Below, in pieces: positions 172 to 20,068 of a DNA stretch of 46,859 nucleotides (positions are counted from its first letter, which is position 1; each line of letters begins with the position of its first letter). Source of the stretch: an uncultured Methanosarcinales archaeon (GTDB lineage Archaea; Nanobdellota; Nanobdellia; Woesearchaeales; CAYSVS01); contig CAYSVS010000003.1 of the NCBI GenBank assembly GCA_964434475.1, positions 1 through 46,859 of the forward strand. The letters are read 5' to 3'. The notes under the pieces are model-generated. The model did not search any database, was not told the origin of the DNA, and worked only from the letters and a program-made list of their open reading frames with translations. Made by a program: the position numbers and the translations under genes.

Positions 172-354
172 ATGAAATTTAAGACAAAGTTATGGAAGAG
201 AAGCCAGAAATCTTTTGCTACTACGATTCCTCATGTAGCATTGCTTGATGTAGATGAAACTATGCCTCACGAAGTAGAATGGGAATATAATAAAGAACTG
301 GGCAAGTGGACTATTTCTTTTAAGCCGATCAAAAAAGAGGTGCGTAAAAAATGA
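172..354 (+). CDS. Small basic protein (60 aa), possibly an AbrB/SpoVT-like DNA-binding protein
   Basis: ORF track. K-rich N-terminus followed by SFATTIPHVAL, resembling the xxTIPKxxxxxL core of AbrB/SpoVT swapped-hairpin domains. Its TGA overlaps the ATG of the giant ORF (ATGA at 351-354). Confidence 0.45.
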   Translation: MKFKTKLWKRSQKSFATTIPHVALLDVDETMPHEVEWEYNKELGKWTISFKPIKKEVRKK

Positions 355-3300
355 GAAAACGTATTTCTTTAGCAGGCATCATTATATTGGCATTGTTGTT
401 GTCAGTCTGTTTTGTAAGCGCAGCTCCGTGGTATGTTGATCTTTTCAACTGGTTTAAATCAGACAATAAGATAACTGGCTTTGCTACTCTGGATGATAAT
501 AGTTCTATATTGTCTACGGATAATAGTACCACAATTATGGAAGGAGAAAATGAATCTTTAGGAATAATGACAATAAAAGAAGGAATGGCTATCTATGGGC
601 AGTTTAACAGAAGCAATGGAGGGTATGCTGTTGGTTTTAATACTTCTATTGTCGTAAATGTAACTAGAGATGGGACTATTTGTGAATGTTTGATCCAAAG
701 GCAATATATGGCAAGCAACGGTGTGACTGGAAGCACAGGAAATTATCAATGGAGCAACCAAGCTGATCAGAATGAGTGGAACTATAGTGTGTGTGAAAGT
801 TGCGACACTGCTTCGTGTAATAATTATTCAGGATTTAGCGGATTTGATCCTGCTTGTATTGATTGTACTGATTATACTGGCACTTGTTATTCTGACTTGC
901 CTGATGAATGTTTAGTTAATTGCGGAAGTAATCCACATTGTACAGAGAATTCAGATGGATTTAACGATACTGATAAAGGCTGCGAAGAAGACATAGAAAC
1001 AGGAGATGCTTTATGGGCTAGGATATATGGCTCAGAAAAGGGATGTCAAGACGCAGATTCTCCAAATACTACAATAGATGTTAATGCAGACTCTATTCAG
1101 ATACCTTATGGTTATGTTTATGGATGTAATGAAATCAATGAACCTTTGATAAATCTGATTGAGCCAATAGATAATGATCAAGTGTACATAACAACAATCA
1201 ATTTTACATTTAATGTAAGTGATGAATCAGGTATAGCAAACTGCTCTTTATTATTTGATGATGAGGTTAACTATACAATGTATGATGTAGAAAGAAACAT
1301 AATTATGAACATCACAAAAACATTGCCTTATGGAATATATAATTGGAGTATAGGATGTTATGATAATGTGAGCAACTATAATGTCTCAGAGTATAGAAGA
1401 TTAATAGTATCTGAAGTGAACAGAGCACCAAACATCACCAGTTTCAAAGCTCCGCCTGTAGTTTCAGGATTTACTGGACAGATTTTCAATGAAACCTTTG
1501 ATTTTTCAAATTCATCCATTCCTACAGATGAAGGAGATAATGTCAATTTTTATGTAAATGCAACAGACTATAACGGAAATGACTATAGGTTGATGATATG
1601 TACTTCTGGAAACATTGAATCAGATTTAACCTGCAGTGCTGCAATGATATGCAACAGCAGTTATGTGTCTTCAGGAAGTTTAGCAAGCTGCACAAATAAC
1701 ACATTAGGAAAATCAAATGAGGCTTATACTTGGTACTCATTTATTTGCGACAACCAAAATTGTTCTGGTCCTTATAATCATTATTCTCCTTATAATGTTA
1801 ACCATAAGCCAACCATAACAAGTCCGACAACTTCAGGCAACCAATATGATACTTCAATAATAACTTGTATAAATGGTACAGCTAGTGATTCTGATACTGA
1901 AGGTGGACAGGATACAGCATCTTTGAACAATTACAGGTGGTATAGTGGCGGAGCTGATCCTAATAATCTTATTTCTGGTCAGAACGGGAATACTTTGGAT
2001 TGCTCGGCAGTCGCGCAATGTGATTCAGGAATATATATCAAATGCTCACACAATGCAATAGACAACCATAATCTTGAAGGAGATTATTCAAACAGTTCAG
2101 GTGTATTGATAAAAGATTCGACTATAGTTTCGAATAACATTGACTGTTATAATGGAAGTATATGGAAAGACTGCAGTGCAATAAAATATGGTGAAACTAT
2201 AGAGCAGGTAAGGGCTAATTGTGTTGATTCTTATAATGCCTCATTTAAATTAGAGAACATTCCAGATAATGATGTTTATTTTGATGTTGGTGAAATAAGC
2301 GGAAGCGGCTGGATAATGTATAATAATGATGATGTTGTTGTAAATGAATCAGGAGATTGGAATATCAGCGTAGTATGTGAAAATGAAAATACAACAAGAC
2401 AGGGTAATAGTGAATGGCTTGTTAATTGGGGAACATTAAACGCGATAAATATAGATCCATTGAATGATTTTGGAGTTGGGCAGTATTCAATATTTAATTT
2501 CACTACAAATATAACTTGCAACGGAGGAGAGTGTGAAGACATAAATGCATGGATCAAGACTGATGATGAAGATGTCCCTGAAAATTCAGGAACTCCTGCT
2601 TATACTTTAGATAGTAATCCTGATTTATTATGCACAAATATGTACCCGGGTCAATCTTGCCAAACAAGATGGAGATTAAATGCTACCGGCAATATTGGAG
2701 GCTATAATATAACTGTAACCTATTCATCATCTAACTCAAATGTTGCAAACTCATCAACAAATGTGATAGTTATGACTATCCAGGATTCCGGAGCTCCTGT
2801 TGTAACTTTGACAAGCCCTGATGATCCTCATAATAATACAGACGGAAATCAGATGTTTACTGCAGAAGCTGTTGACGCTTCAAATATAAGCAATTGCTCT
2901 TTGTATACCAATATAACCGGACAGTTCATGATTAACGATACTGAATATGGCGATAAAGCATCTTATTCTTTTCAGATAAATAGTATTCCAGATGATACTT
3001 TATTTGTTTGGAATGTGCAATGCTGCGATAATATGAGCAATTGCGCTTTCGCTGAAGACAACAGGACAGTAAGGATAATGATCAATGATGCACCTTATAT
3101 AACAAGCCCTAATCCTATCCAGACAAATATAGCGATGGATGAGACAGATTCATATCCTTTTTCTATAGTCAAGAATGATGATGACTGGTGGGATACAGTT
3201 TCTGTAACATGGTATGTTAATGGAACATTGAACAAGTCTGGAACATCTCCTTCATATGATTTCTATACTTTTTATTCAGGATATGAGAGTGCAGGAGTAT

Positions 3301-6300
3301 ACAATATAACTGTTGTCCTCGAGGATCTAGAAGGATTAACAGACGAGCATACATGGACTTTGATAGTGAACAATAAGAATAGAGATCCTGTTATAAGTAG
3401 TTTTAATTTTACAAATTCAACAGACATAGATTATGACAGCAATGTGATTGCAAATGAGAACAGCTTGTTAGAGTTTGCAGTGAATGCATCTGATCCTGAT
3501 GATGACGCATTAGGATACTATTGGTATATTGACGATGTGCTTAATGAAACAGGCAGCAATGCTTGGCAGTGGCAGACAGATTATGACGATAATGGAACTT
3601 ACAATATAAGCGTAAAAGTTAATGATACTTATGGTGCTACAGTTTGGCAGAATTGGAGTTTGGTAATAAAAAATAATAACAGAGCTCCAAATATAACAAG
3701 CTATGCTCCTATAATCTTGATACCATCTATTGACGAAGGAGATAATTTGACTTTCAATGCAACAGCTATAGATTATGATGGAGATGATATAGGTTATTAT
3801 TGGTTTGTCAATGGTTCACTAGAACAGACAAATGGCAATTACACCTTTGAAGCTAATGAGACTAGTGCGGGCGTATATAATATAACTTTGATAGTGAATG
3901 ATAGTTTTGGTGATTCAGATTCCTTAACGTGGATACTGAATGTAAGCATAGTAAATTCAAACGCTTCTATAGATGCTTATCATCCTCTTGCAAATCCAAT
4001 TATAAACGAAACAGAAAGTCAAGAATTCAATATTACTGCAAGCGATGCTGATAATAGCATACCAACAGCGCAATGGCTTTTGAACGGCACTCCTGTTGAC
4101 TCGGATTATAGCTATACCTATAATTCAGATTATACAAGTGCTGGAAGCTATAATGTTACAGTATTATTGACAGATGTTGATTCTGGGCAAGTTACAGATA
4201 GACGTGAATGGCTGTTAGTAGTTACAAATGTGAATAGAATTCCAGTTATCCATGACTACAATTTCACAAATTCAACAGATATAGATTACGATAGCAATGT
4301 TATTGGCAAAGAAAATAGCACTTTAGTATTTGCAGTGAATGCATCAGATTTAGATGTTGATGATTCAATAGGATATTATTGGTATATAGATGATATGCTT
4401 AATGAAACAAGCAGCAATACTTGGCAGTGGCAGACAGATTATGATGATAATGGAACTTATAATATAAGCCTAAAAGTTAATGATACTTATGGTGCTTCAG
4501 TTTGGCAGAATTGGAGTTTAATTATAAATAACCAAAATAGGGCTCCTAATATTACATATTATGCTCCTATAAGTTTAAGTCCTTCTATTGATGAAGGCCA
4601 AAACCTTACTCTTAATATAACTGCAATAGATTATGATGGCGATAATATCAATATATATTGGTACGAGAATGAAACGTTAAAACAGATAGGAAGCAATTAT
4701 ACCTTTATTACAAACGAAACAAGTGCAGGAAGTTATGGTGTGAGTGTGTTGGTCAATGATACTTACGGAGACTATACTCTTTTGACATGGATCATAACAG
4801 TCAATGCAGTAAACTCAAACGCTACTATCTATACATATTATCCTCTTGCAAATCCAATTATAAACGAAACAGAAAGTCAAGAATTCAATATTACTGCAAG
4901 CGATGCTGATAATAGCATACCAACAGCGCAATGGCTTTTGAACGGCACTCCTGTTGACTCGGATTATAGCTATACCTATAATTCAGATTATACAAGTGCT
5001 GGAAACTATAATGTTACAGTATTATTGACAGATGTTGATTCTGGGCAGGTTACAGATAGACGTGAATGGATTTTTACTATAACAAATGTCAACAGATATC
5101 CTCAGATAACTCAGCAAGTACAATTCCTTAACCTTACTGATCAGCATGGATTTATAGCAAATGCTTCTGCAACAGATCCTGATGGATTATCTGAACTTCA
5201 AAATTGCATTGTTTATTATTATAATGCAAGCCATAATTTCAGTAAAGAAGGAGATTATAGCTCTGGAAAATGTCAAGCAGTAATAAACATGAGCGATGGA
5301 TTTAGTATTTTTGAGAAAATAAATGTCAGCATAGAGTTTACTGATATTTATGGCGCATCCAACATAACTGAAAATAGAAGCAATTCTATACCTAACAATA
5401 ATCCAAGCGTGACCGATGTACTGGTATCACCTGGTGCACCTACTACCTTGCAGAACCTTACTTGTAGTTACACTTTCTCAGATCCTGATGGTGATGAAAA
5501 TAATTCAATAATCAGATGGTATAAGGAGGACCTTGAACAAATTTCATTAGAAAATGTTTCTTTAGTATTATCAGGAAACACATCCAACGATGAAACGTGG
5601 AACTGTACTGTGATTCCTTTAGATAATTATGGCGGCATAGGTGCAAGCAAGTCTTATGCAGTTATAATAGGAAGCACAGCTCCTTATATAACAGAAACTT
5701 TGGATGTGTTTAACAGAACAGGCCATTACTTCAACATAACCGCAAAAGCATCTGATGCAGATGGAGTAGGAGATATAGCTAACTGCAGCTTATGGCACGG
5801 AATAGGAGCCCCAAGCAGCATAAAAAATGGAATATTCAATAATGTTACTGGAAGATGCATTATCAACTTAAGCATATACGATGGCTATGATGTTTTTGAT
5901 GCCATAACAGTTAAATTGCAATTTACAGATAAGTCTGGGAAGAGCATAAATACGAGCGTAAAAACAAATGCGATTCCTAACTATGCGCCAGATATAAACA
6001 AAGTATTTATCCCTTTAGTTGTCAACGAAACAGACTGGTTAAATGTTTCTTTTGCGGCAACAGATGCAGATGGAGACGTCATTAACTATAAAATATACAG
6101 GAACGATTCAGAACAAGCATCAACTAATATAAGTGACTGGCTTACTACATACGATGATGCAGGATATTATGAATATAAACTAGTAGCAAACGATAGTTAT
6201 GAATCAGATATAAATTACAGCTATGTTACTATATTGGACGTAAATAGGGCGCCTATAATCTACAGCTATAATTTCAGCAACGGAACAGACATAGATTATG

Positions 6301-9300: not shown

Positions 9301-12300
9301 AAAAAATAACAAATCTTGATACAACACTCAATGTAACTTTCTTACATCCAGAACTTATAGATATGAGTGAAGGTTATAATGTGACTATAACATTATCTTA
9401 TTGTGAAGGAGGAAGCTGTGATAATTATGAAACATATATAGATGTTTATTTTGATGACCCTACTTATGGCGGAACACCAGGAGGAGAATGGGCATCGGAC
9501 AATGAAAATGAATGGGAAATAGGTCTTGGAGTTTCTGGAATTACTTGGGCAGGATGTAATGATACCAAAAATTCTGATTTTGATTATCTTGGAACTGGAA
9601 GCACATCTTTTGATCAGTCAAGCTATGATTGCTATGATATAGACTGCGATGCAAAACAAGGGCCTGCAGCAAGAAATACATATACTGGCCAAGATACAAA
9701 AGGTTTATGCAGCTATAGCGGAGAGCATGCTAATGATGCTATGTGCTTTGATGAGTATAACAATGACTGGCATACAGAAGATACTACCTATGGGCATCTA
9801 AATACAAATGTTGATACTATGTTTACTGATTGCAGGGATAGTGACTGTGATGGCGTAGTTAATCCTGCAAACGCGTCACAGATTTGTGAGCACAGCATAG
9901 AATTAAATTGCAGCGATGGATTTGACAATGACCATTGGCAGGTTGCTGACTGCAATAGAGCAGCGGGTGCTGATTACAATAGCCTTGAATATGATTGTGC
10001 AGCATACTGCAGAGCAACAATAGATTCTTCTGAAAAAGGAAGCGAATGTGATGATGGCATAGACAATGATTGGGACAAATATTATACAGATGGAGGAGGA
10101 AGAACAGGTTATTCTTTGAACACTACTTATGGTGCAGGAATGGACTGTGCATGGGGTTCAGGTGCAGACGAAGATTGTGATAATGAAATATTGAGCAATG
10201 GAAAAAGATGCGAGCTAAACAATGAATCTACGTGTGATGATAGTTTTGATAATGATTATGATGACGGACATACGATCCAAGCAGGCTGGTCTGCTGCTTA
10301 TTATAACCAATACTTTGGTCAATTTGGCATGACATACAGCAGCAATGCTGATTGCGATGATTATGACTGCTACAATAAATTGAATTGTCCTACAGATGAG
10401 TCTTTGAACTTGTCCTGGTGTTTTGACGGAGCAGATAATGATCTTGACGGTTTAATTGATTGTGCAGACAGCGATTGCCTTGGCAAGACCAATCCAGAAA
10501 ATGAAAACGAAACCTGCTATCCTGATGAGTTTTTAGTAGATAGTTATCAGGTATGCAATAATGATTTTATGAGTTTTACTCTGCCTTCAAATGTTGCGAT
10601 AACTCCGAGAGATGATGATGGCGATGGTAATGCTAACTGCCAGGACAGTTCATGTAAGCAGGCATTTGGAAATTGCGGTCCTTGTCCTGATGTAGAGAAT
10701 GTTACATATGATTCCTGCGCTAATTCAAAAGATGATGATCTTGATGCTAATATAGATTGTGCTGATACCGATTGTTACGGCATGATAGGAAATTATGAAG
10801 GGGCTTTATGCAGCAGCGAAGAGAACAGTGATGCCTTATGCTCTGATGGTTTTGATAATGATAATGACGGAGGAGCTGACTGTGCTGACAGCAATTGCAG
10901 AAATAATAATTTTGCTTCCTGTTCAGCTGCAGAGAACTGCAATGATGCTGTTGATAATAATGGTAATGGCTTGATCGACTGTCAAGATTCAACTTGCTTA
11001 GCTGCTTGTGATTTAGTTACTGATTTTAGTTCTACATTATACGGGCCTTCGACAGATTATTTGTCTCTGGACAACGAAAAACTAAAGATTTATTGGAACA
11101 ACAGGGTAAGAAAAGGCAGTAATCATACTGTAAGGTTTACTTTCAGCGATCCTTATACTTACTCGCAGCTAACTTTAGGTAATCTCGGCGGAGATGCTTT
11201 GCCTGTAGGTCAAGGTTTGCAAGGAAATAACTTTGCGCTAAGTGGACCAGATGCTTCATTGTTTGAAACTCAGAACTATAACGAAAACGGAGCTCATGAC
11301 AAAGGACAGATTGCTGTAGTTGATTCAGACGATGGCGGAAGCAGCCTTGATGTCACTATCAATATACCTACTGATAGCGCTATGTCTCAAAAACAATATG
11401 AACTTATCACTTTAATAAATTCAAAAAGTATAACTGGCAACCTTCTAGATGTTTTGGTTCTTGATGATATTGCGCCAACTATAGATAATGTAGTTATACA
11501 ACCTTCGAGTTTGGAAGTTGAGTATGGCGATACTTTCTGGGTAAGAGCAAAAGCAACAGATCCTGATAATGGGGATCCTTATGAAGGAGAAATTTATGAT
11601 TGTAGGTTTAAAATTACAGGGCCAGGAGGTTATTCTCATACAACTTCAAGCAGCAGCTGTCAGTATACAAGCAATGCAATCACAAGTTCTGGAACATATA
11701 CTGTAAATGTAACTGCAAGAGATGCAACAGGAAATTATGGCAGTGTAAACAGCACATCCTATGCTATAACAGTCAAGCCAAAGTATGTTTCTGGAACCAA
11801 TACCTATCCTATGATTCCGTGGTATAAAAACGGTCAGAGTATGCAGGTTAGTGCAGATTTTAAATCAGAGAAAGCAATATCTGGAAATTCTTGTACTGTA
11901 TATAGAGAAGGAGGAATAAGTTTAGGAACTATAACTGCAACAAAAATTGGAGATTCAGTTAGTTGCAATGGAACAGTTAATGTGCCGGCAGTTAGCACAA
12001 ATATGTATAAGATTTATGTAAATATAACAGATGCAAATTCTAACACTGCAAAAAGCGATAATAAGGTAGTGCATGTATGTGATACAAGCTACTCAGGAAT
12101 ATGCAAATATGCTGACTTTGATCTAGACGGAGCACCTGAAGGTATTAAATATAAATATAATGATTCCCTTGTTTGTGATAATTGTCCTAATACATATAAT
12201 CCTGACCAGTATGATTCTGATGGAGATGGAGTGGGAGATGTCTGTGAGGATATGAGTCCTCATATAGACAATAAGATATACAACAGCCGCGAGGATGAGA

Positions 12301-13439
12301 ATGTAACACAGGTTGATCTTTGGGCAGTAACAAGAGATGCAGATAATTTAACGTCTGAACTTATTTATATTTTATTGGATCAATCTAATTCAAGTTTTAT
12401 AAATTGCAACATAATAAGCAACAGGTATATTGGTTGTTCTGCTCCTGGAAAAGATCTTTATGGCTATAACAATCTTTCAATAAACATAAGTGATGGTGAA
12501 CATTACACTATTGAAACAATAAAGATGAATGTTTTGTCTGTGATTGACTTTAATGTTACATCGCCTGTTGATAATAATACTTACTACGGATATTTTGTTG
12601 GCGTAAATTTCACAGCTGATGAAATCATATCGAGCGCATGGTATCACTTGGATAATGAAACAGATAATATCACTATACCTACAGATGACATCAATGCGTA
12701 TAAGCTTGCTTATGTGAAAGAGTTTGGCAATCACAGTATTAGGCTTTATGCGAAGAACTCTAACAACATAGTAAGCGAGAAAGTGATAAACTTTACAACA
12801 CAATCACAGCCTGCATGGGTACAGGGCTATGTTTCAGATGAGAATAATTATATTTATAGGGCAGGCGTGAAGTTAATCCAGCACGGAAGTGTTGTCGCTA
12901 CATATCTGACAAATGAATCTGGTTTCTATAAGTTTAAGACAGTGGGAGGAGATTTTATAGTTAAAGCAACCAAGTATGGTTATGATAATTATCAAAGTAG
13001 CGTGACTTTGACTCCAGGAAGTACAACAACAAATGATATTGGGTTAACACCTTCAAGCTTGAGCGGAAGCTTTGTCGGACAATTATACATTATAGATTCT
13101 GCTACATATATGCCTTTGGATCCTCAAGGTTATAAGGTTAAGCTTATCAAGAATATAGGCGGAGAAGAGGAAATTTTACAGGTCGCAGAGATAACATCTG
13201 TTTCAACAGACGCTTTTGGTTATTCTTTCGGCACCCATAGGTTTAACGGCTTGTTGTCAACAAGCTCAAGCAATGCGATGTACAGGACAGAGTTGTACGA
13301 TGATTGTATCGACAACGGAACTTGCACATATTGGTCAAAGCCATCCTTGTTTGGGTTAGATGCTGGACAGATTGTAAATTTTGATCCAGATAATAGTACA
13401 TGGTATGATTCAGGAGAGATTATGGTAGGTAGAAGCTGA
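351..13439 (+). CDS. Giant secreted surface/adhesin-like protein (4,362 aa), mosaic of Ig/PKD-like repeats, Cys/Asp-rich repeats, a TSP3-like repeat and a CarboxypepD_reg-like C-terminus
   Basis: Uninterrupted 13,089-nt ORF in AT-rich DNA. Signal peptide MRKRISLAGIIILALLLSVCFVSAAPW. Repeated modules of the form NRAPNIT..DYDGD..YYW..NGTYNITV. Very dense N-x-S/T sequons. Ends ..GEIMVGRS with no TM helix or sorting signal. Confidence 0.95.
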   Translation: MRKRISLAGIIILALLLSVCFVSAAPWYVDLFNWFKSDNKITGFATLDDNSSILSTDNSTTIMEGENESLGIMTIKEGMAIYGQFNRSNGGYAVGFNTSIVVNVTRDGTICECLIQRQYMASNGVTGSTGNYQWSNQADQNEWNYSVCESCDTASCNNYSGFSGFDPACIDCTDYTGTCYSDLPDECLVNCGSNPHCTENSDGFNDTDKGCEEDIETGDALWARIYGSEKGCQDADSPNTTIDVNADSIQIPYGYVYGCNEINEPLINLIEPIDNDQVYITTINFTFNVSDESGIANCSLLFDDEVNYTMYDVERNIIMNITKTLPYGIYNWSIGCYDNVSNYNVSEYRRLIVSEVNRAPNITSFKAPPVVSGFTGQIFNETFDFSNSSIPTDEGDNVNFYVNATDYNGNDYRLMICTSGNIESDLTCSAAMICNSSYVSSGSLASCTNNTLGKSNEAYTWYSFICDNQNCSGPYNHYSPYNVNHKPTITSPTTSGNQYDTSIITCINGTASDSDTEGGQDTASLNNYRWYSGGADPNNLISGQNGNTLDCSAVAQCDSGIYIKCSHNAIDNHNLEGDYSNSSGVLIKDSTIVSNNIDCYNGSIWKDCSAIKYGETIEQVRANCVDSYNASFKLENIPDNDVYFDVGEISGSGWIMYNNDDVVVNESGDWNISVVCENENTTRQGNSEWLVNWGTLNAINIDPLNDFGVGQYSIFNFTTNITCNGGECEDINAWIKTDDEDVPENSGTPAYTLDSNPDLLCTNMYPGQSCQTRWRLNATGNIGGYNITVTYSSSNSNVANSSTNVIVMTIQDSGAPVVTLTSPDDPHNNTDGNQMFTAEAVDASNISNCSLYTNITGQFMINDTEYGDKASYSFQINSIPDDTLFVWNVQCCDNMSNCAFAEDNRTVRIMINDAPYITSPNPIQTNIAMDETDSYPFSIVKNDDDWWDTVSVTWYVNGTLNKSGTSPSYDFYTFYSGYESAGVYNITVVLEDLEGLTDEHTWTLIVNNKNRDPVISSFNFTNSTDIDYDSNVIANENSLLEFAVNASDPDDDALGYYWYIDDVLNETGSNAWQWQTDYDDNGTYNISVKVNDTYGATVWQNWSLVIKNNNRAPNITSYAPIILIPSIDEGDNLTFNATAIDYDGDDIGYYWFVNGSLEQTNGNYTFEANETSAGVYNITLIVNDSFGDSDSLTWILNVSIVNSNASIDAYHPLANPIINETESQEFNITASDADNSIPTAQWLLNGTPVDSDYSYTYNSDYTSAGSYNVTVLLTDVDSGQVTDRREWLLVVTNVNRIPVIHDYNFTNSTDIDYDSNVIGKENSTLVFAVNASDLDVDDSIGYYWYIDDMLNETSSNTWQWQTDYDDNGTYNISLKVNDTYGASVWQNWSLIINNQNRAPNITYYAPISLSPSIDEGQNLTLNITAIDYDGDNINIYWYENETLKQIGSNYTFITNETSAGSYGVSVLVNDTYGDYTLLTWIITVNAVNSNATIYTYYPLANPIINETESQEFNITASDADNSIPTAQWLLNGTPVDSDYSYTYNSDYTSAGNYNVTVLLTDVDSGQVTDRREWIFTITNVNRYPQITQQVQFLNLTDQHGFIANASATDPDGLSELQNCIVYYYNASHNFSKEGDYSSGKCQAVINMSDGFSIFEKINVSIEFTDIYGASNITENRSNSIPNNNPSVTDVLVSPGAPTTLQNLTCSYTFSDPDGDENNSIIRWYKEDLEQISLENVSLVLSGNTSNDETWNCTVIPLDNYGGIGASKSYAVIIGSTAPYITETLDVFNRTGHYFNITAKASDADGVGDIANCSLWHGIGAPSSIKNGIFNNVTGRCIINLSIYDGYDVFDAITVKLQFTDKSGKSINTSVKTNAIPNYAPDINKVFIPLVVNETDWLNVSFAATDADGDVINYKIYRNDSEQASTNISDWLTTYDDAGYYEYKLVANDSYESDINYSYVTILDVNRAPIIYSYNFSNGTDIDYDSDVIANEGDSLDFVINASDPDGEAINYYWYFDDVLNQTGSKLWQWQPGFDNNGTYNITVKVNDSQGLYDVHDWTLVINNKNRAPNITGYTPLNLLPIIFEGQNMTFNVSTTDYDGDAMNIYWYVNSSLEQINGEYEFEANATSEGHYNITALVNDTFGDYDVMSWILEVVGTNQNATINTFYPAVDPVINETDSQEFNITAHDDDGSSPTAQWLLNGSNEASGYTYTYNSDYTSAGSYNVTVLLTDVDIAQVTDRREWILTIKDVNQVPVIVVDISLNNFSVGHGFNISARANDGDDNLQSCRLFYGYGSSLDNIKAGNLDGLGNCKVSLENTTDNLAGNTAINMTVEFSDSESAKINTSYASNTLSNNDPTINFVNVQPADANELDNLSCNYSISDMDSDDFIVNFDWFIDGISLGLNMSNISYGNTSIGDNVSCKVTATDTFNGISSDKSSNITIIPSNQPPVVDAIVLTNLTNLHGFHVFANATDINANFDSCIVWHSTFSPPTTKTIGSIYINGNYAECRLNLTNSTYNVDDNVYVKVQFNDTYGYSVNSSISSNHISNIKPTVVDVSIVPSSPTAEDDLSCSYNVIEPENDAYYTNIFWYNDDVLVPELNNLTNISYTNTSNGEEWYCNVSAVDSYGLISAYNASSSITIQNITAWTNLTLPEGIYSIKPAPAPDYGTFKYNFTLGFDDFTSSAGNEVKCYIEESDCNGGFGTCTILELNKTVTSTITNGNFNITHELQPSDVINTSQAGTTSIYVPWEIKNCSLYKEGNLLYTNNISWRIHVHPTNWSSGDIANANNCYNEGKGQFFLNTVKCDFYGDVAFASFMYSGTKVEGYCHDNIDNNDIFPEIDCNDDNCKGITYSCLDKKDLDNNTLYYSPSGSHGTLASEIKTGDIDSVVSDVATSNTDIQWTQHSMPNGTFKIRFRKWALDKIATIKIKGLPEIKRVNKYAPAMDQANGLMEYFINGSDATVDTDVLEEGQNYANEIWLKSFITDQKITNLDTTLNVTFLHPELIDMSEGYNVTITLSYCEGGSCDNYETYIDVYFDDPTYGGTPGGEWASDNENEWEIGLGVSGITWAGCNDTKNSDFDYLGTGSTSFDQSSYDCYDIDCDAKQGPAARNTYTGQDTKGLCSYSGEHANDAMCFDEYNNDWHTEDTTYGHLNTNVDTMFTDCRDSDCDGVVNPANASQICEHSIELNCSDGFDNDHWQVADCNRAAGADYNSLEYDCAAYCRATIDSSEKGSECDDGIDNDWDKYYTDGGGRTGYSLNTTYGAGMDCAWGSGADEDCDNEILSNGKRCELNNESTCDDSFDNDYDDGHTIQAGWSAAYYNQYFGQFGMTYSSNADCDDYDCYNKLNCPTDESLNLSWCFDGADNDLDGLIDCADSDCLGKTNPENENETCYPDEFLVDSYQVCNNDFMSFTLPSNVAITPRDDDGDGNANCQDSSCKQAFGNCGPCPDVENVTYDSCANSKDDDLDANIDCADTDCYGMIGNYEGALCSSEENSDALCSDGFDNDNDGGADCADSNCRNNNFASCSAAENCNDAVDNNGNGLIDCQDSTCLAACDLVTDFSSTLYGPSTDYLSLDNEKLKIYWNNRVRKGSNHTVRFTFSDPYTYSQLTLGNLGGDALPVGQGLQGNNFALSGPDASLFETQNYNENGAHDKGQIAVVDSDDGGSSLDVTINIPTDSAMSQKQYELITLINSKSITGNLLDVLVLDDIAPTIDNVVIQPSSLEVEYGDTFWVRAKATDPDNGDPYEGEIYDCRFKITGPGGYSHTTSSSSCQYTSNAITSSGTYTVNVTARDATGNYGSVNSTSYAITVKPKYVSGTNTYPMIPWYKNGQSMQVSADFKSEKAISGNSCTVYREGGISLGTITATKIGDSVSCNGTVNVPAVSTNMYKIYVNITDANSNTAKSDNKVVHVCDTSYSGICKYADFDLDGAPEGIKYKYNDSLVCDNCPNTYNPDQYDSDGDGVGDVCEDMSPHIDNKIYNSREDENVTQVDLWAVTRDADNLTSELIYILLDQSNSSFINCNIISNRYIGCSAPGKDLYGYNNLSINISDGEHYTIETIKMNVLSVIDFNVTSPVDNNTYYGYFVGVNFTADEIISSAWYHLDNETDNITIPTDDINAYKLAYVKEFGNHSIRLYAKNSNNIVSEKVINFTTQSQPAWVQGYVSDENNYIYRAGVKLIQHGSVVATYLTNESGFYKFKTVGGDFIVKATKYGYDNYQSSVTLTPGSTTTNDIGLTPSSLSGSFVGQLYIIDSATYMPLDPQGYKVKLIKNIGGEEEILQVAEITSVSTDAFGYSFGTHRFNGLLSTSSSNAMYRTELYDDCIDNGTCTYWSKPSLFGLDAGQIVNFDPDNSTWYDSGEIMVGRS
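3982..4211 (+). repeat. Near-identical 230-nt core (module C), copy 1
   Basis: Base-by-base comparison with 4840-5069 shows only 2 mismatches (agc/aac and caa/cag). Confidence 0.9.
4840..5069 (+). repeat. Near-identical 230-nt core (module C), copy 2
   Basis: Same as 3982-4211, at an offset of 858 nt. Confidence 0.9.
6243..7100 (+). repeat. Third, more diverged copy (858 nt) of the A-B-C super-repeat
   Basis: NRAPIIYSYNFSNGTDIDYD.. / NRAPNITGYTP.. / QNATINTFYPAVDP..DRREWILTIKDVN, collinear with copies 1 and 2. Confidence 0.85.
8823..11009 (+). other. Cys/Asp-rich region of the giant protein with repeated C.DG.DND.DG..DC.D.DC motifs (putative metal/Ca-binding, MopE-like motif)
   Basis: Examples: CFDGADNDLDGLIDCADSDC (10419-10478), CANSKDDDLDANIDCADTDC, CSDGFDNDNDGGADCADSNC, CNDAVDNNGNGLIDCQDSTC. 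Confidence 0.6.
12174..12250 (+). other. Thrombospondin type-3-like calcium-binding repeat within the giant protein
   Basis: CDNCPNTYNPDQYDSDGDGVGDVCED matches the C.N.PNP.Q.D.D.DG.GD.C pattern of TSP3 repeats. Confidence 0.65.
12825..13052 (+). other. Carboxypeptidase-regulatory-like beta-sandwich domain near the C-terminus of the giant protein
   Basis: GYVSDENNYIYRAGVKLIQHGSVVATYLTNESGFYKFKTVGGDFIVKATKYGYDNYQSSVTLTPGSTTTNDIGL follows the typical G.V.D..G.P...A.V......T.TD..G.Y......G.Y.l.....GY pattern. Confidence 0.6.
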
Positions 13440-16228
13440 TGAGACAAAAATATAAGATGATAAGGATATGTATGTTGGTTCTTATAGCTTTAGCTTTGTC
13501 TAGTTTCACTTATGCGTTTACAGTAGAAGGAACAATAACTGATGCGAGCAACAGTAGTTTATATATCAATAATGCAACAGTTAAACTATATAATGATAAT
13601 ACAGATGCGTTAATAGCTGAAGATACGACCGATGCTTCTGGTTATTACGTGATAGTCGATGCTTCATGTGCAGTGCCTATAACTTATAGATTAGAATATT
13701 CTGCAGTAAACTATAGCTCTAAGAATGATACGATTACATTGATGCCTTTCCCACCTGGAGCTTGCGGATTGACAGTAACAAGAGATCAGGATCTAGTAAA
13801 GGTAAGGATGCCTGAAGGTTATATAACTGGTACTGTGAGAGATTCTTTTACTATGTTGGGGTTGGATAAGACCGATATAGCATTGTCAATAACAGGAATG
13901 ACTATTCAGGAAAAGACAACATCTAAAATAGGAACATATAATTTTACTGTTTCGCCTGACAACTATGATGCAGAATACACAAGAGACAGATATTTTACAC
14001 AGGAGAAAAACATTAGCGTAATAGATAATCAAACAACAACACAGGATGTCGACTTGATAGAGATTCCTAGATTAGGAGGGTTAGTAAAAGATGATTCTGG
14101 CAATGCTGTAGGTGGTGCAATTGTTTCTGCATATGAGCTTGATATCGTAAATACGACATATTCTAATGAAACTAGGACCAGCAGTTATAAGACTGGTGAA
14201 GCGGTTGATTATTCAGGGGCTGTTTTCGATAATACTGTGCTGAATTCAAGCGAAGGTTATATAGAACTTAACAGCAGTTTTACTCAAGGAAATCTTACAT
14301 CAGCATCTTATAAGGCGGAAAGTATTCCTGCATATGATTCGATTGACTGGGATTCCTTTACTCCGGGCAATTCTAGTATTAAGTTTCAGATAGCGACCAA
14401 TACAGATAATTCAACTTGGAATTTTAAAGGGCCAGATGGAACAAATAACAGTTATTATGAATCTCCTGCGACAATTCCGCAATTACATGACAATGATCCT
14501 TATATGAGATATAAGGCTTATTTTGAGACAGACAATACTAATTATGTGCCTGTATTAAACAATGTAACCATAAGCTATACTTATGAAAGTCAGGTTGCGC
14601 ATCATACATATAATGAAACTTTGCTTAATTATACTGCTATTACAGGACAAGGAGGAGAATTTGTTGTAATTACTTCTATATCGCTTATCAAGTTAGTGGC
14701 AGAAAAATCAGGTTATAGTTCTAATTCAGTGATACTCAATGCAACAGGCGGAGAAAATACAGGAACCATAATTGTTATAGAATCATTGGACGAGCAGGAA
14801 GAACCTCCTTCTGCTTCAGGAGGGGGCGGCGGCGGAGCTTATGTGGGCTGTCTGCCAGAGTGGAACTGTACTGAATGGAGCATATGTTATCCTGATGGAA
14901 CAAAAACAAGAACATGTATAGATTTGAACGAGTGTCCTGATCCTGCTCGCATACCTGCAGAAATTGCATCCTGCGTATATGGACCTTATGTTGAAGAGCC
15001 AGGAGAAAAATTACCAAGAAAAGAATCGCCTTTGGTTTATGGATATATTCCTGAAATAGAGGAAGGTGTTGAAGATTTCAATGTAACTTTATTTGAAGAT
15101 ATGATATATGGTTTTAGGTTTGAAAAAGAAGATCATCAGCTGATAGTTTATGACATAGAAAGTAACAATGCAAAGATGTTATTCTATTCTGAACCAAAAA
15201 ACATAACTTTATTTATTGAACAGACTCAATCTATTGATCTTGATGATGACGGAACATATGATTATGTGATAAGTCTGCTTATAACAACGGATAATTCCAT
15301 AATATTGAATTTTGAAAAGATAACATTCTGGGATTTATTCTTTGAATGGATTTCAGAAAAAGGTTATGTTGTAAAATATTTGTTTATAGCTATATTTTTA
15401 GTAATCTTCCTTATATTGTTGGAAAGATTAACCAGAGGTTTGTTTGTTATATCCAGAAAAAAGAAGATGGCAAGATATGAATACTTTGAGAAACAGCTTA
15501 AACTTAAGGAACAGACATATAAAGATAAAAAAGATATAGAAAGCAGGATTGAACTGCTTAATATACAAGCTTCAAGGATTAAGTTTAAGGCAAAGCGCGA
15601 TAAATTACTGGCTAAGATAAGGAACAAGAACAATATGCTTAAATTGATGTCAGATAAGATAAAGATAGATCATGAGAAGAAGAAGCAGCTGTTGGATGTT
15701 GAGATGAGACAGAAAGAGCTCGCTTATGAGAAGCAGAAGAGAATGAAACTAAAAGATGTGCAGAAGAAAAAAGCAGACATAACTTTAGATAAAAAAGAAC
15801 TAAGTATAGATGATACTAAGCAGAGAAGACTGCTTGATCTGGAAAGAGCAAAAAGAAAGCTAGAAAAAGAAAAAGATATGGGCCAGCACAAGTTTAAGTA
15901 CGATATGGAAAAGGCAAGGATAGATGCTGAAATAGAAGAGTTGAAGAGGAGAAAGAAAAAAATGTTAGGATTGTTCAAAAATAAAAAATCAGAAGATATG
16001 TTGCTTGAGCCTAAGAAAGAAAGGAATAAGGATGTTAAAAAAGTCATCAGTAAGAGAAAAACAAGAAAAGTAAAAAATAAAAAAGAGAAGCCTCTGAAAA
16101 CAAGATCCAAAAGAAAAACAAATAATAAAAACGCCAAGAAAAGAAAAACATCAAGAAAGAAAAAAGAATCAAAAGAGAAAAAGATAATAGATAAAGTCGA
16201 TAATATTTTGAATAAGGGTGATTTATGA
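13439..16228 (+). CDS. Type-I membrane protein (929 aa): CarboxypepD_reg-like ectodomain repeats, Cys knot, one TM helix, long K/E-rich coiled-coil and polybasic cytoplasmic tail
   Basis: Start overlaps the giant ORF stop (TGATG at 13437-13441). Signal peptide MIRICMLVLIALALSSFTYAF. FTVEGTITD..ATVKLYN..TDASGYYVI repeats. Gly6 linker followed by CLPEWNCTEWSICYPDGTKTRTCIDLNECP (from 14849). TM helix YVVKYLFIAIFLVIFLILLERL (about 15363-15428), then about 265 aa rich in K/E/R. Confidence 0.9.
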   Translation: MRQKYKMIRICMLVLIALALSSFTYAFTVEGTITDASNSSLYINNATVKLYNDNTDALIAEDTTDASGYYVIVDASCAVPITYRLEYSAVNYSSKNDTITLMPFPPGACGLTVTRDQDLVKVRMPEGYITGTVRDSFTMLGLDKTDIALSITGMTIQEKTTSKIGTYNFTVSPDNYDAEYTRDRYFTQEKNISVIDNQTTTQDVDLIEIPRLGGLVKDDSGNAVGGAIVSAYELDIVNTTYSNETRTSSYKTGEAVDYSGAVFDNTVLNSSEGYIELNSSFTQGNLTSASYKAESIPAYDSIDWDSFTPGNSSIKFQIATNTDNSTWNFKGPDGTNNSYYESPATIPQLHDNDPYMRYKAYFETDNTNYVPVLNNVTISYTYESQVAHHTYNETLLNYTAITGQGGEFVVITSISLIKLVAEKSGYSSNSVILNATGGENTGTIIVIESLDEQEEPPSASGGGGGGAYVGCLPEWNCTEWSICYPDGTKTRTCIDLNECPDPARIPAEIASCVYGPYVEEPGEKLPRKESPLVYGYIPEIEEGVEDFNVTLFEDMIYGFRFEKEDHQLIVYDIESNNAKMLFYSEPKNITLFIEQTQSIDLDDDGTYDYVISLLITTDNSIILNFEKITFWDLFFEWISEKGYVVKYLFIAIFLVIFLILLERLTRGLFVISRKKKMARYEYFEKQLKLKEQTYKDKKDIESRIELLNIQASRIKFKAKRDKLLAKIRNKNNMLKLMSDKIKIDHEKKKQLLDVEMRQKELAYEKQKRMKLKDVQKKKADITLDKKELSIDDTKQRRLLDLERAKRKLEKEKDMGQHKFKYDMEKARIDAEIEELKRRKKKMLGLFKNKKSEDMLLEPKKERNKDVKKVISKRKTRKVKNKKEKPLKTRSKRKTNNKNAKKRKTSRKKKESKEKKIIDKVDNILNKGDL

Positions 16229-16713
16229 TGAAAGATATGGAAGAAACGCTAAAATCCATAAACAAGGAGATATTGACTGAAAAGAATTCAGCTTTGAAAT
16301 CGATAACCAAGTTAGAGAAAAAGCAGAACTTGAAGGTTGCTGATATTGAGTATGAACTTGATGAGTTGAAATCCAAATATTCTAAATTGGATGAGAAGAA
16401 AAAATATCTCGATAAGAAGATAACCGCTGCAGATAAGAAGTTAGAATCTTTGTCGAAAAAGAAAGAAAGGAAGCAGAACTCGATAGATAAGCTTAAGAAA
16501 GCGGTTGAAAAACTGAAAGAGATAGAGAAAGAATACAATAGCCTGGATAAGGATGAAAAGAATATGAAAGAGAACAAAAATACCATATCTGGTCTTCTAA
16601 AGGAACTGAAGAACATAATTAAGATAAAGCAGAAAAAAGAAAAAATGCTCAAATCTGCTTTGAAAAAGTTGAAGAAGGAAGAATATCAGCTTAAGAATAT
16701 AAGGTTCAAATGA
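16225..16713 (+). CDS. K/E-rich coiled-coil protein (162 aa), function unknown
   Basis: ATGA overlap with the upstream stop (16225-16228) and GGTGA 4 nt upstream. Heptad-like K/E/L composition throughout. Confidence 0.7.
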   Translation: MMKDMEETLKSINKEILTEKNSALKSITKLEKKQNLKVADIEYELDELKSKYSKLDEKKKYLDKKITAADKKLESLSKKKERKQNSIDKLKKAVEKLKEIEKEYNSLDKDEKNMKENKNTISGLLKELKNIIKIKQKKEKMLKSALKKLKKEEYQLKNIRFK

Positions 16714-19769: not shown

Positions 19770-19788
19770 GCCTCAAATTCTATATATT

Positions 19789-19931
19789 GGACGGCCATAG
19801 GGGTGGGGTTCACCTGTTCCCATATTCTGATGGTTAATCCCACAGGAGGGGAGTTCGAACACAGAAGTTAAGACTACTTCCGTTCGTGTGTGTACTGCAC
19901 TTATGTGCGGGAAATCACGAAAGCTGTCCAT
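19789..19931 (+). rRNA. 5S: 5S ribosomal RNA (about 143 nt) with a roughly 30-nt insertion in loop C; ends +/-3 nt
   Basis: GGACGGCCATAG..CACCTGTTCCCAT[30 nt]TTCGAACACAGAAGTTAAGAC..GTACTGCACTTATGTGCGGGAA. Helix I pairs GGACGGC (19789-19795) with GCTGTCC (19923-19929). Helix III pairs CTGT/ACAG, helix V pairs TTCGTG/CACGAA, and helix IV is GCAC-TTAT-GTGC. The gene is a GC-rich island in AT-rich DNA. Confidence 0.9.
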
Positions 19932-19951
19932 CTTTTTATTATTTCTTTTTT
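19932..19951 (+). terminator. Oligo-T tracts after the 5S gene (archaeal-type termination signal)
   Basis: CTTTTTATTATTTCTTTTTT lies immediately 3' of helix I. Confidence 0.5.
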
Positions 19952-20039
19952 AGATTATTGTGGTTATTTAATATTTGTCTTTAATGTATCTCTAATTACT
20001 GATTGTTGCACTGGACACACTGGACAGGTGTGCGTGAGA

Positions 20040-20047
20040 TATATAAA
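20040..20047 (+). promoter_or_regulatory. TATA box candidate for the LAGLIDADG gene (leaderless)
   Basis: TATATAAA is centred about 25-26 nt upstream of the ATG at 20069. Confidence 0.45.
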
Positions 20048-20068
20048 TGGGCTTTGCATTATAATTTT

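What the first reader, a model, noticed from the sequence alone, without database searches (positions are those of the whole stretch)
172..16713. Translationally coupled surface module: AbrB-like protein, anchorless 4,362-aa secreted giant, type-I membrane partner with long cytoplasmic tail, coiled-coil protein
Seen in sequence: consecutive + strand ORFs joined by 1-4 nt overlaps (ATGA at 351-354, TGATG at 13437-13441, ATGA at 16225-16228, ATGA at 16710-16713). The giant protein has a signal peptide but ends ..GEIMVGRS, with no TM helix, PGF-CTERM-like tail or lipobox. The next ORF has its own signal peptide and repeats the same carboxypeptidase-regulatory-like fold that closes the giant protein. 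It then has a Gly6 linker, a Cys knot (CLPEWNCTEWSIC..), one TM helix (about 15363-15428) and about 265 aa of K/E-rich coiled coil ending in a tail that is roughly half K/R. A 162-aa coiled-coil protein follows. Inference: the giant ectoprotein is tethered non-covalently by the membrane partner, which links it to the cytoplasm, and the coiled-coil protein may pair with that tail. Giant surface proteins of small-genome archaea are usually discussed as single orphan ORFs. As far as I know, a defined regulator, cargo, anchor and cytoplasmic adaptor arrangement has not been described.
Basis: partly seen in the sequence, partly recalled or inferred. Interest (0 to 1): 0.75.

Follow-up and report, generated by a model that had tools for sequence, protein, structure and literature searches.

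The report
Giant archaeal adhesin with conserved small partner
This stretch of a tiny-genome (DPANN) archaeon encodes a 4,362-residue secreted adhesin whose only demonstrably conserved partner is the 60-residue protein just upstream, while the proposed membrane anchor and cytoplasmic adaptor remain untested and unsupported.

Summary
The ORFs, the four overlapping junctions and the protein features are all present as described.

- **Overlaps are not module-specific.** The overlap chain runs on into housekeeping genes. The ORF that overlaps ORF4 is the N-terminal half of the ribosome-rescue factor RqcH, followed by an RsmB-type methyltransferase. Overlaps are also common elsewhere in the window.
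- **ORF1 is the new result.** It belongs to an unannotated family of small basic proteins (50-135 aa, single or tandem). In six of ten organisms examined, a member sits directly upstream of a large secreted or membrane surface protein, often overlapping it. One of these is a homologue of the giant, at least 1,700 aa long. AbrB-likeness is only weakly suggested (hhalign probability 46%).
- **ORF3 is a surface protein in its own right.** It is a type-I membrane protein built from generic modules, with a helical, very basic tail. One positional homologue exists beside RqcH in the closest relative, and there ORF4 is absent.
- **ORF4 is an orphan.** It is a basic coiled-coil protein, so pairing with the equally basic ORF3 tail is not favoured.
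- **Anchoring of the giant by ORF3 stays untested.** It would mirror the known SlaA/SlaB arrangement of Sulfolobales.

Verdict: an ordinary DPANN surface-protein locus with one modestly new element, the conserved small-protein and giant-protein pair.

The parts
172..354 (+). ORF1: 60-aa basic (pI 9.8) cytoplasmic protein. Belongs to an unannotated small-protein family with consensus MKFxTKLWKRSxKSFATTIPHxxLLxLD..KKYxVxWEY....KWTVxF.
   Evidence: ORF. (29 hits at E<=1e-3 in 1.84 billion representatives; the real members are 50-135 aa, the long proteins are spurious repeat matches). (alignment). No Pfam, NCBIfam, PHROG or PDB hit. hhalign against AbrB/MazE-type sequences: probability 46%.
351..13439 (+). 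ORF2: 4,362-aa acidic (pI 4.05) secreted giant, rich in N, S, D and T, with 119 Cys and 200 N-X-S/T sequons. It has an N-terminal signal or signal-anchor (aa 1-~26), PKD / Big_7 / Big_9 / BiPBP_C Ig-like arrays (aa ~1,000-2,100), acidic double-disulfide (TSP3-like) repeats (aa ~3,160-3,960), and no C-terminal anchor.
   Evidence: Internal duplications were seen.
12819..13046 (+). Sub-threshold CarboxypepD_reg-like (transthyretin-like) domain in ORF2 (aa ~4,157-4,232). About 130 unassigned residues follow it.
   Evidence: 29.4-30 bits, cut-off 32.3.
13439..16228 (+). ORF3: 929-aa type-I membrane protein with an acidic ectodomain (pI 4.1) and a basic cytoplasmic tail (pI 10.3).
13520..13744 (+). 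ORF3 CarboxypepD_reg / transthyretin-like domain (aa 28-102). The model shows further beta-sandwich domains up to aa ~257.
   Evidence: 58.7 bits, above the 32.3 cut-off. (model). (5aq0_B transthyretin-like domain, probability 1.00, TMt 0.62).
14279..14581 (+). ORF3 conserved jelly-roll / CBM-like domain (aa 281-381). This is the only part of ORF3 with many homologues, mostly ~600-aa prepilin-type (N_methyl) proteins, several labelled Patescibacteria/Parcubacteria by their source.
   Evidence: 33-50% identity over ~100 aa. (pLDDT 84-96). (CBM32 4a42, CBM6 2cdo and PNGase C-domain 2g9f; probability 0.92-0.99, but E only 4e-3 to 1.5e-2).
14819..14980 (+). Gly6 linker followed by a 6-Cys module (C471..C512; C.P.WNCTEW..C...R.C.DLNEC). 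The same module precedes the TM helix in small DPANN surface proteins.
   Evidence: positions. (P0066-P0069, 46-52% identity). (their gene contexts are unrelated).
15107..15286 (+). Juxtamembrane beta domain of ORF3 with a DLDDDGTYD calcium-loop-like motif. It is conserved in the ORF3-like gene of relative L002.
   Evidence: strands, low pLDDT. (30% identity over 76 aa including the TM, pairwise E 9e-7).
15371..15430 (+). ORF3 transmembrane helix (aa 645-664), followed by RKKK (positive-inside).
15431..16225 (+). ORF3 cytoplasmic tail: 265 aa, 37% K+R. Predicted as four long helices (to aa ~846), then a disordered K/R-rich end. Its 3' part contains a 17-18 nt tandem repeat (16127-16182).
16225..16713 (+). 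ORF4: 162-aa basic (pI 9.7) coiled-coil protein. No homologue was found in the related loci searched; no database-wide search was run for it. It has its own GGGTGA Shine-Dalgarno-like site.
16710..17822 (+). ORF5 (context): N-terminal half of the ribosome-rescue factor RqcH. It overlaps ORF4 by ATGA.
   Evidence: NFACT_N, E 9e-53. (RqcH_arch positions 2-378 of 645)..
17827..18813 (+). ORF6 (context): RsmB/NOL1-type RNA methyltransferase, the last gene of the gap-free + strand string.
   Evidence: The same RqcH-RsmB order occurs in L002.

Best explanation
The region is the first two-thirds of a gap-free, probably co-transcribed six-gene string in a DPANN archaeon (Woesearchaeota/Nanoarchaeota-like). 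It mixes surface-protein genes with housekeeping genes.

The only evolutionarily conserved functional unit in it is ORF1 plus the giant gene. ORF1 is a small basic cytoplasmic protein that keeps a position immediately upstream of genes for large exported surface proteins. I infer that it is a dedicated DNA-binding (auto)regulator, possibly with an AbrB/MazE-like fold. A dedicated cytoplasmic helper for the giant's expression or export is less likely.

The giant is exported by Sec. It is probably heavily N-glycosylated, and the window carries a large glycan-synthesis cluster. It most likely acts as an Ig-repeat adhesin towards a host cell or a surface.

ORF3 is a second, independent surface protein. 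It is a membrane-anchored, lectin-like glycoprotein made of transthyretin-like and jelly-roll domains on the stalk module typical of DPANN (Gly linker plus 6-Cys module), with a helical, polybasic cytoplasmic tail. ORF4 is a lineage-specific coiled-coil protein with no demonstrable link to either.

Shown: the gene order, the domains, the conservation of the ORF1-giant pair, and the ORF3-like gene beside RqcH in one relative. Inferred: regulation by ORF1, the adhesin role, and glycosylation.
For: - ORF layout and overlaps.
- ORF5 is RqcH-N and ORF6 is RsmB-type.
- Shine-Dalgarno-like sites (GAGGTG, GGGTGA, GGAGG) lie before the internal genes.
- ORF1 family.
- Downstream neighbours of family members:
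  - P0073 (75% identical to ORF1) overlaps by 8 nt an ORF of at least 1,700 aa that is homologous to ORF2 (E 7e-40).
  - P0076 overlaps by 8 nt a membrane protein.
  - P0072 and P0075 precede signal-bearing Ig-like/CARDB-like proteins.
  - Tandem P0100 overlaps by 14 nt a secreted FG-GAP-like protein of at least 648 aa.
- Tandem-duplicated family members fit a fold that works as a dimer. The hhalign hit falls on the AbrB/MazE signature strand.
- ORF2 domains.
- ORF3 modules and their independent occurrence in other proteins.
- ORF3-like gene upstream of RqcH in L002 without ORF4.
- Glycan cluster.
Against: - ORF1's fold and activity are unproven. There is no Pfam or PDB sequence hit, the single-sequence AlphaFold2 model has low confidence (pLDDT 63.6), and the Foldseek result is meaningless.
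- Four more distant ORF1-family members are not next to large surface genes.
- All relatives' contigs end inside the large gene. What lies downstream of a giant in another organism is therefore unknown, and an ORF3-type partner there cannot be excluded.
- The tight 1-nt overlap of ORF2 and ORF3, and the lack of any other anchor in ORF2, remain compatible with a partnership.
Confidence: 0.6

Rival explanations
1. ORF3 is a dedicated, non-covalent membrane anchor for the anchorless giant, analogous to SlaB for SlaA. Its helical polybasic tail links the complex to the cytoplasm.
For: - The giant has no TM, sorting signal or canonical lipobox beyond its N-terminal segment.
- The ORF2 stop and the ORF3 start share a base.
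- ORF3 has the general shape of an anchor: signal peptide, beta-sandwich domains, a stalk and a TM.
- An ORF3-like juxtamembrane, TM and basic-tail gene is retained in the closest relative.
- In relative L091, small type-I membrane proteins that share a domain with the giant's N-terminus lie in the same cluster.
- The principle has a precedent in SlaA/SlaB (PMC10903991).
Against: - No homologue of the full-length ORF3 or of the giant's C-terminal 400 aa was found, so recurrence cannot be shown.
- ORF3's conserved parts are generic modules that also occur in pilin-like proteins and in small DPANN proteins in unrelated gene contexts.
- ORF2's C-terminus and ORF3 share no sequence similarity.
- Overlaps of the same kind join ORF4 to RqcH, so overlap does not indicate a functional link here.
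- ORF3's best-conserved domain resembles carbohydrate-binding modules, which suggests a ligand of its own.
Confidence: 0.17
2. The giant anchors itself. Its N-terminal hydrophobic segment, with an h-region of about 20 residues, is an uncleaved signal-anchor (type-II topology), so no partner is needed.
For: - The h-region ISLAGIIILALLLSVCFVSA is long for a cleaved Sec signal peptide.
- The homologous giant in L091 also starts with a ~20-residue hydrophobic stretch, IITIILFALVIILSASAIAG.
- Other large proteins in the L091 cluster are single-TM, N-in proteins.
Against: - A plausible signal-peptidase site (VSA|A) follows the h-region.
- No signal-peptide or topology predictor was available, so this rests on inspection of the sequence.
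Confidence: 0.15
3. The full four-part module. ORF1 is the regulator, ORF2 the cargo, ORF3 the anchor, and ORF4 a cytoplasmic adaptor that pairs with the ORF3 tail.
For: - Consecutive overlapping genes.
- Both ORF4 and the ORF3 tail are predicted to be helical or coiled-coil-like.
Against: - ORF4 has no homologue in about 0.9 Mb of related loci, and it is missing between the ORF3-like gene and RqcH in L002.
- Both putative partners are strongly basic, pI 9.7 and 10.3.
- ORF4 overlaps RqcH in exactly the same way as it overlaps ORF3.
- ORF4 and the tail share no significant similarity.
Confidence: 0.05

Closest known systems
SlaA/SlaB two-component S-layer of Sulfolobales (PMC10903991; PMC6911244)
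   Same: A large, glycosylated, secreted subunit without a TM, encoded next to a smaller subunit. [quoted passage not shown]
   Different: - SlaB's stalk is an extracellular trimeric coiled coil, and its TM lies at the very C-terminus (aa 448-470). ORF3 has a Gly/6-Cys stalk and a 265-aa basic cytoplasmic tail.
- ORF2 is three times larger than SlaA (1,424 aa) and is an Ig/PKD-repeat, adhesin-type protein rather than a lattice former.
- No sequence relationship was detected.
- No interaction was tested.
Giant surface ('SPEARE') proteins of Nanohaloarchaeota (PMC10266531)
   Same: DPANN archaea with very small genomes encode giant acidic (pI ~4) proteins with a Sec signal and Ig-like/fibronectin-like arrays. 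These are thought to mediate host contact, and their neighbouring genes have been considered part of the system.
   Different: - Those proteins are 8,900-9,400 aa, are described as membrane-anchored themselves, and carry a VirB4/TraG-like ATPase domain, with a second VirB4-like ATPase gene downstream.
- ORF2 has no ATPase domain and no TM. Its neighbours are a small basic protein and a type-I membrane protein.
AbrB/MazE/SpoVT swapped-hairpin DNA-binding domain (Pfam PF04014; accession and the MraZ comparison are from my own knowledge)
   Same: - A basic domain of about 50 aa with a beta-beta-alpha-beta-beta pattern.
- The conserved S..xTIP strand aligns with the GNSxxVxIP signature.
- The family occurs as single and as tandem-duplicated forms, as expected for a half-barrel that works as a dimer (as in MraZ).
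   Different: - No Pfam hit for any of 22 family members at E<=1.
- No PDB hit with the family profile.
- The structure model is not confident.
Prepilin-type ~600-aa proteins with CarboxypepD_reg domains, several labelled Patescibacteria/Parcubacteria (hits P0003-P0064)
   Same: They share with ORF3 the CarboxypepD_reg domains and the ~100-aa jelly-roll-like domain (33-50% identity; up to 41% of ORF3 is covered).
   Different: They are anchored by an N-terminal type-IV-pilin-like segment (PF07963). They lack ORF3's 6-Cys stalk, C-terminal TM and basic tail.

Membership tests
AbrB/MazE/SpoVT domain (ORF1) | Significant match to the Pfam family model (PF04014) or to solved AbrB/MazE-type structures by sequence | tested here: not met
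   No Pfam hit for ORF1 at E<=10 or for any of 22 family members at E<=1. The family profile against the PDB gives only an unrelated hit at E 0.16.
AbrB/MazE/SpoVT domain (ORF1) | Profile-profile similarity over the swapped-hairpin core | tested here: inconclusive
   hhalign of A2 against A3: probability 46%, E 2e-4, 33 aligned columns on the signature strand.
AbrB/MazE/SpoVT domain (ORF1) | Beta-beta-alpha-beta-beta fold forming a dimeric barrel | tested here: inconclusive
   Single-sequence AlphaFold2: pLDDT 63.6, elements E-H-E-E. Foldseek returned no match with E<=0.001.
SlaA/SlaB-type cargo and anchor pair | Adjacent genes on the same strand: a large secreted subunit without a TM, and a smaller subunit with a signal peptide, beta-sandwich domains and a single C-terminal-side TM | tested here: met
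SlaA/SlaB-type cargo and anchor pair | Anchor with an extracellular coiled-coil stalk and a TM at the extreme C-terminus | tested here: not met
   In ORF3 the helices start at the TM and lie on the cytoplasmic side (aa 643-846). The extracellular stalk is a Gly linker plus a 6-Cys module, and 265 aa follow the TM. SlaB description from PMC10903991.
SlaA/SlaB-type cargo and anchor pair | Physical binding of the large subunit to the anchor | not testable with these tools
   No multimer prediction was available. No homologues exist for co-evolution analysis.
Archaeosortase / PGF-CTERM or lipobox anchoring (ORF2) | C-terminal tripartite signal (motif, TM helix, basic tail), or an N-terminal lipobox [LVI][ASTVI][GAS]C (pattern from my own knowledge) | tested here: not met
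   There is no hydrophobic segment apart from aa 1-32 and no NCBIfam sorting-signal hit. The N-terminal L-S-V-C has V at position -1, and the Cys is absent from the L091 homologue.
CarboxypepD_reg (PF13620) | Score above Pfam's gathering threshold (32.3 bits) | tested here: met
   ORF3: 58.7 bits, two stretches, and a structural match to the transthyretin-like domain 5aq0. The ORF2 C-terminal copy scores only 29.4-30 bits, below threshold.
Nanohaloarchaeal SPEARE-type giant proteins | C-terminal membrane anchor with a VirB4/TraG-like ATPase domain, and a VirB4-like ATPase gene downstream | tested here: not met
   No ATPase domain in ORF2, ORF3 or ORF4. No TM in ORF2 apart from the N-terminal segment. 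Family description from PMC10266531.
RqcH / NFACT (ORF5, context gene) | NFACT-N, HhH and coiled-coil domains plus an NFACT-R domain | tested here: inconclusive
   The NFACT_N model is met at E 9e-53, but the gene ends at position 378 of the 645-position archaeal model. No NFACT-R is encoded in the window. The same short form occurs in 61 of 84 related loci.

The most novel reading that the evidence does not exclude
DPANN archaea carry a conserved cassette in which a member of a previously undescribed small basic protein family (ORF1-like, single or tandem, possibly a divergent AbrB-type fold) controls or assists a giant Sec-exported adhesin. In this lineage the adhesin is additionally held on the cell by a co-translated type-I membrane partner (ORF3), whose long polybasic helical tail reaches into the cytoplasm. 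That would be a SlaA/SlaB-like principle applied to a host-contact adhesin.
Probability: 0.15. Interest if true: 0.6.

Novelty: new variant of a known kind. Interest (0 to 1): 0.35.

Why it matters
Giant surface proteins are the leading candidates for how DPANN archaea attach to their hosts. How they are expressed and kept on the cell is not known.

The ORF1-family gene gives a concrete handle that can be searched for. It is a small conserved companion that marks such loci and could be tested as their regulator. If ORF3 did prove to be an anchor, the two-component principle of the Sulfolobales S-layer would extend to adhesins of ultra-small archaea.

As it stands, the locus is mostly an ordinary lineage-specific surface-protein cluster. 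The four-part module is not established.

Tried and rejected
- **Synteny anchored on RqcH.** A genome scan and a metagenome scan with an alignment gave 84 loci and about 0.9 Mb. Only the L002/L011 organism has an ORF3-like gene upstream. No ORF1, ORF2 or ORF4 homologue and no ORF of 1,200 aa or more were found.
- **Homologue searches.** Searches used the full ORF3, ORF3 aa 455-700 and the last 400 aa of ORF2. They returned only domain-level hits, four hits to the 6-Cys module, and nothing, respectively. A giant-plus-anchor synteny test was therefore impossible.
- **ORF1 as AbrB.** Pfam, NCBIfam, PHROGs and the PDB, searched with the sequence and with the family profile, were all negative. The single-sequence AlphaFold2 model and its Foldseek search were uninformative.
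- **Long proteins hit by ORF1** (P0077, P0085, P0090, P0094, P0095). P0077, P0085, P0094 and P0095 are repeat proteins and P0090 is a WD40/STAND NTPase. I rejected all five as spurious matches.
- **Scan of viral contigs with the ORF1 family.** Nothing was found.
- **ORF4 as a duplicate of the ORF3 tail, or as the missing half of RqcH.** No significant similarity was found.
- **UGA recoding or a frameshift fusing ORF2 and ORF3.** Rejected. TGA ends ORF1 to ORF4, there is no in-frame TGA within 4,362 codons, and ORF3 starts with its own signal peptide in another frame.
- **Self-BLAST of ORF2 to count repeats.** It returned only the identity hit, so repeats are documented only indirectly.


Full report
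**1. The observation**

The four ORFs and their junctions are as described: ORF1 172-354, ORF2 351-13439, ORF3 13439-16228 and ORF4 16225-16713. The stop/start overlaps are ATGA, TGATG, ATGA and ATGA.

A Kyte-Doolittle scan finds one hydrophobic segment in ORF2 (aa 1-32). It finds two in ORF3, at aa 5-31 and at the TM around aa 640-672. It finds none in ORF1 or ORF4.

The Gly6 run (aa 461-466), the six cysteines (aa 471-512) and the 265-aa tail are all present. The tail is 28% K and 9% R, and its last 90 aa are 43% K+R. ORF2 ends ..GEIMVGRS without any sorting-signal hit.

Two details are weaker than stated:
- The CarboxypepD_reg-like domain in ORF2 is below Pfam's threshold, and about 130 residues follow it.
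- BLAST finds no similarity between ORF3 and ORF2.

**2. What the overlaps mean**

The gene that overlaps ORF4 at 16710 is the N-terminal half of the ribosome-rescue factor RqcH (Pfam NFACT_N, E 9e-53; NCBIfam RqcH_arch positions 2-378 of 645). Four bases further on lies an RsmB/NOL1-type methyltransferase.

The gap-free string is therefore ORF1 to ORF6, and it joins surface genes to translation-related housekeeping genes. Elsewhere in the window, four of 13 same-strand junctions overlap and one abuts (coordinates). The internal genes carry their own Shine-Dalgarno-like sites: GAGGTG before ORF2, GGGTGA before ORF4 and GGAGG before ORF6.

Overlap here is a habit of a compact genome. It is not evidence of a functional module.

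The rest of the window is a glycan-biosynthesis cluster, a 5S rRNA gene and a LAGLIDADG ORF. The nearest relatives of the marker genes are labelled Woesearchaeota or Nanoarchaeota.

**3. ORF1**

Sequence searches give nothing for ORF1 itself in Pfam, NCBIfam, PHROGs or the PDB.

An exhaustive HMMER search of 1.84 billion representatives finds 29 hits. The genuine ones are proteins of 50-135 aa with the consensus MKFxTKLWKRSxKSFATTIPHxxLLxLD..KKYxVxWEY....KWTVxF. Some carry two tandem copies. The long hits are repeat artefacts.

The evidence on AbrB-likeness is as follows:
- The family has no Pfam match and no PDB match by profile.
It aligns WKRSxxSFATTIP with VKRWGNSPAVRIP.
- The single-sequence AlphaFold2 model is poor (pLDDT 63.6), and its Foldseek search is uninformative.

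'AbrB-like' is therefore a reasonable lead. The tandem forms fit a fold that acts as a dimer. It is not established.

**4. The ORF1-giant pair is conserved**

Ten organisms were examined for what lies downstream of an ORF1-family gene.

| Family member | Locus | Relation to ORF1 | Downstream gene |
|---|---|---|---|
| ORF1 | window | query | 4,362-aa giant, 4-nt overlap |
| P0073 | L091-L096 (16 Logan contigs) | 75% identical | ORF of at least 1,700 aa, cut by the contig end, 8-nt overlap; signal-like N-terminus; 41% identical to ORF2 aa 265-491 (E 7e-40) |
| P0076 (tandem) | L097 | 47% | membrane protein, 8-nt overlap |
| P0072 | L102 | 74% | CARDB-like protein with N-terminal hydrophobic segment |
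| P0075 | L103 | 61% | Ig-repeat protein with N-terminal hydrophobic segment |
| P0100 (tandem) | L104/L105 | its cluster representative P0089 is 31% | secreted FG-GAP-like protein of at least 648 aa, 14-nt overlap |
| P0099 | L100 | distant | no such neighbour |
| P0080 | L101 | distant | no such neighbour |
| P0086 | L106 | distant | no such neighbour |
| P0097 | L107/L108 | distant | no such neighbour |

Six of ten organisms show the arrangement, including all members at least 47% identical to ORF1 whose contexts were examined.

**5. ORF2**

ORF2 is acidic (pI 4.05), with 200 N-X-S/T sequons and 119 Cys. It contains PKD, Big_7, Big_9 and BiPBP_C Ig-like arrays, five acidic double-disulfide repeats and internal duplications.

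It has no TM, PGF-CTERM or canonical lipobox. The Cys in L-S-V-C is not conserved in the L091 homologue. Its N-terminal h-region of about 20 residues could be a cleaved signal or a signal-anchor. I had no predictor to decide between them.

**6. ORF3**

Among 5.8 billion proteins there is no full-length homologue. The shared pieces are:
- The CarboxypepD_reg domains.
- A domain of about 100 aa (aa 281-381) found mainly at the C-terminus of ~600-aa prepilin-type proteins, several labelled Patescibacteria/Parcubacteria.
- The Gly linker plus 6-Cys module, which occurs before the TM of small DPANN surface proteins in unrelated gene contexts.

AlphaFold2 with a 40-sequence alignment gives several features (mean pLDDT 62.5):
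- Confident beta domains, with pLDDT 84-96 for aa 281-381.
- A low-confidence stalk.
- A TM that continues into four long helices (aa 643-846).
- A disordered K/R-rich end.

Foldseek matches the transthyretin-like domain of carboxypeptidase D. More weakly, it matches carbohydrate-binding jelly-rolls (CBM32, CBM6 and the PNGase C-domain).

ORF3 therefore looks like a lectin-type surface protein in its own right.

In the closest relative (L002, RqcH 60% identical), an ORF running off the contig start lies directly upstream of RqcH. It carries a homologous juxtamembrane domain (VDIDGDGEYD against IDLDDDGTYD), a TM and a K/R/H-rich tail of about 170 aa (pairwise E 9e-7). ORF3 thus has a positional orthologue, but the contig is too short to show whether a giant precedes it. 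Other relatives, such as L012, L003 and L004, have unrelated genes there.

**7. ORF4**

ORF4 gives only coiled-coil-type, sub-threshold matches. No homologue exists in the related loci. It is absent from the 160-nt spacer between the ORF3-like gene and RqcH in L002.

It is basic (pI 9.7), like the tail it was proposed to bind (pI 10.3), and shows no similarity to that tail. The adaptor idea has no support.

**8. Comparison with known systems**

- *SlaA/SlaB.* The cargo-plus-anchor idea is the SlaA/SlaB principle of Sulfolobales. SlaB has three beta-sandwich domains, an extracellular trimeric coiled coil and a TM at aa 448-470 (PMC10903991). ORF3 shares the outline but not the stalk, and it adds a long cytoplasmic tail.
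- *Nanohaloarchaeal giants.* These are themselves membrane-anchored, carry a VirB4-like ATPase, and have been analysed together with their downstream genes (PMC10266531). The statement that such proteins are treated only as orphan ORFs is therefore too strong, and ORF2 is not of that type.

**9. Verdict**

- ORF1 with the giant: yes, by conserved synteny.
- ORF3 as anchor: possible but untested.
- ORF4 as adaptor: unsupported.
- Overlaps as evidence for a module: no.

The modest novelty is the unannotated ORF1 family as a recurrent companion of large exported surface proteins in DPANN archaea.

Noticed in passing
window 16710-17822; loci L002-L090: The RqcH gene ends after the NFACT-N, HhH, first coiled-coil helix and tip region (370 aa; positions 2-378 of the 645-position archaeal model). 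No NFACT-R domain is encoded in the window. The same short form occurs in 61 of 84 related loci, while 8 loci continue for 255-314 more residues. The search pattern favoured the short form.
   Followed up: partly
window 19787-19932 and 20003-20896: The 5S rRNA match spans 146 nt for a 120-position model, which suggests an insertion. A 297-aa ORF with a LAGLIDADG_3 homing-endonuclease domain lies 70 nt downstream.
   Followed up: no
window 20886-46664: A large glycan-biosynthesis cluster fills the rest of the contig beside the heavily sequon-rich giant. It includes GT1, GT2 and GT4 glycosyltransferases, three DegT aminotransferases, GDP-mannose dehydratase, UDP-glucose dehydrogenase, UDP-GlcNAc 2-epimerase, a sulfotransferase, a Wzx-type flippase and a PMT_2 protein.
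   Followed up: partly
L091 1-9827: This is the relative with the ORF1-like and giant pair. Upstream on the same strand are six small proteins with N-terminal hydrophobic (signal- or pilin-like) segments. One, of 360 aa, has a domain paralogous to the giant's N-terminal domain, a Gly-rich linker and a C-terminal TM. Divergently, there is a 91-aa HTH-like protein with an internal repeat, followed by N-in single-TM proteins of 563 aa and 1,468 aa (the latter running beyond the locus).
   Followed up: partly
L008-L010 (P0068) and L006/L007 (P0066): The Gly linker plus 6-Cys module (C.P.WNCTEW..C...R.C.DLNEC) occurs in small type-I membrane proteins. One set lies on contigs full of short unannotated ORFs with a resolvase gene next door, possibly a mobile element or a virus of DPANN archaea.
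   Followed up: no
window 16127-16182; L002 177-770: The K/R-rich end of the ORF3 tail is encoded by a 17-18 nt tandem repeat. The tail of the L002 homologue contains two copies of a ~58-aa repeat. The basic tails seem to evolve by local duplication, keeping their composition rather than their sequence.
   Followed up: no
L104 6905-10314: A tandem (127-aa) ORF1-family gene overlaps a secreted FG-GAP-like protein of at least 648 aa. It lies next to a divergently transcribed prepilin peptidase (Peptidase_A24) gene.
   Followed up: no
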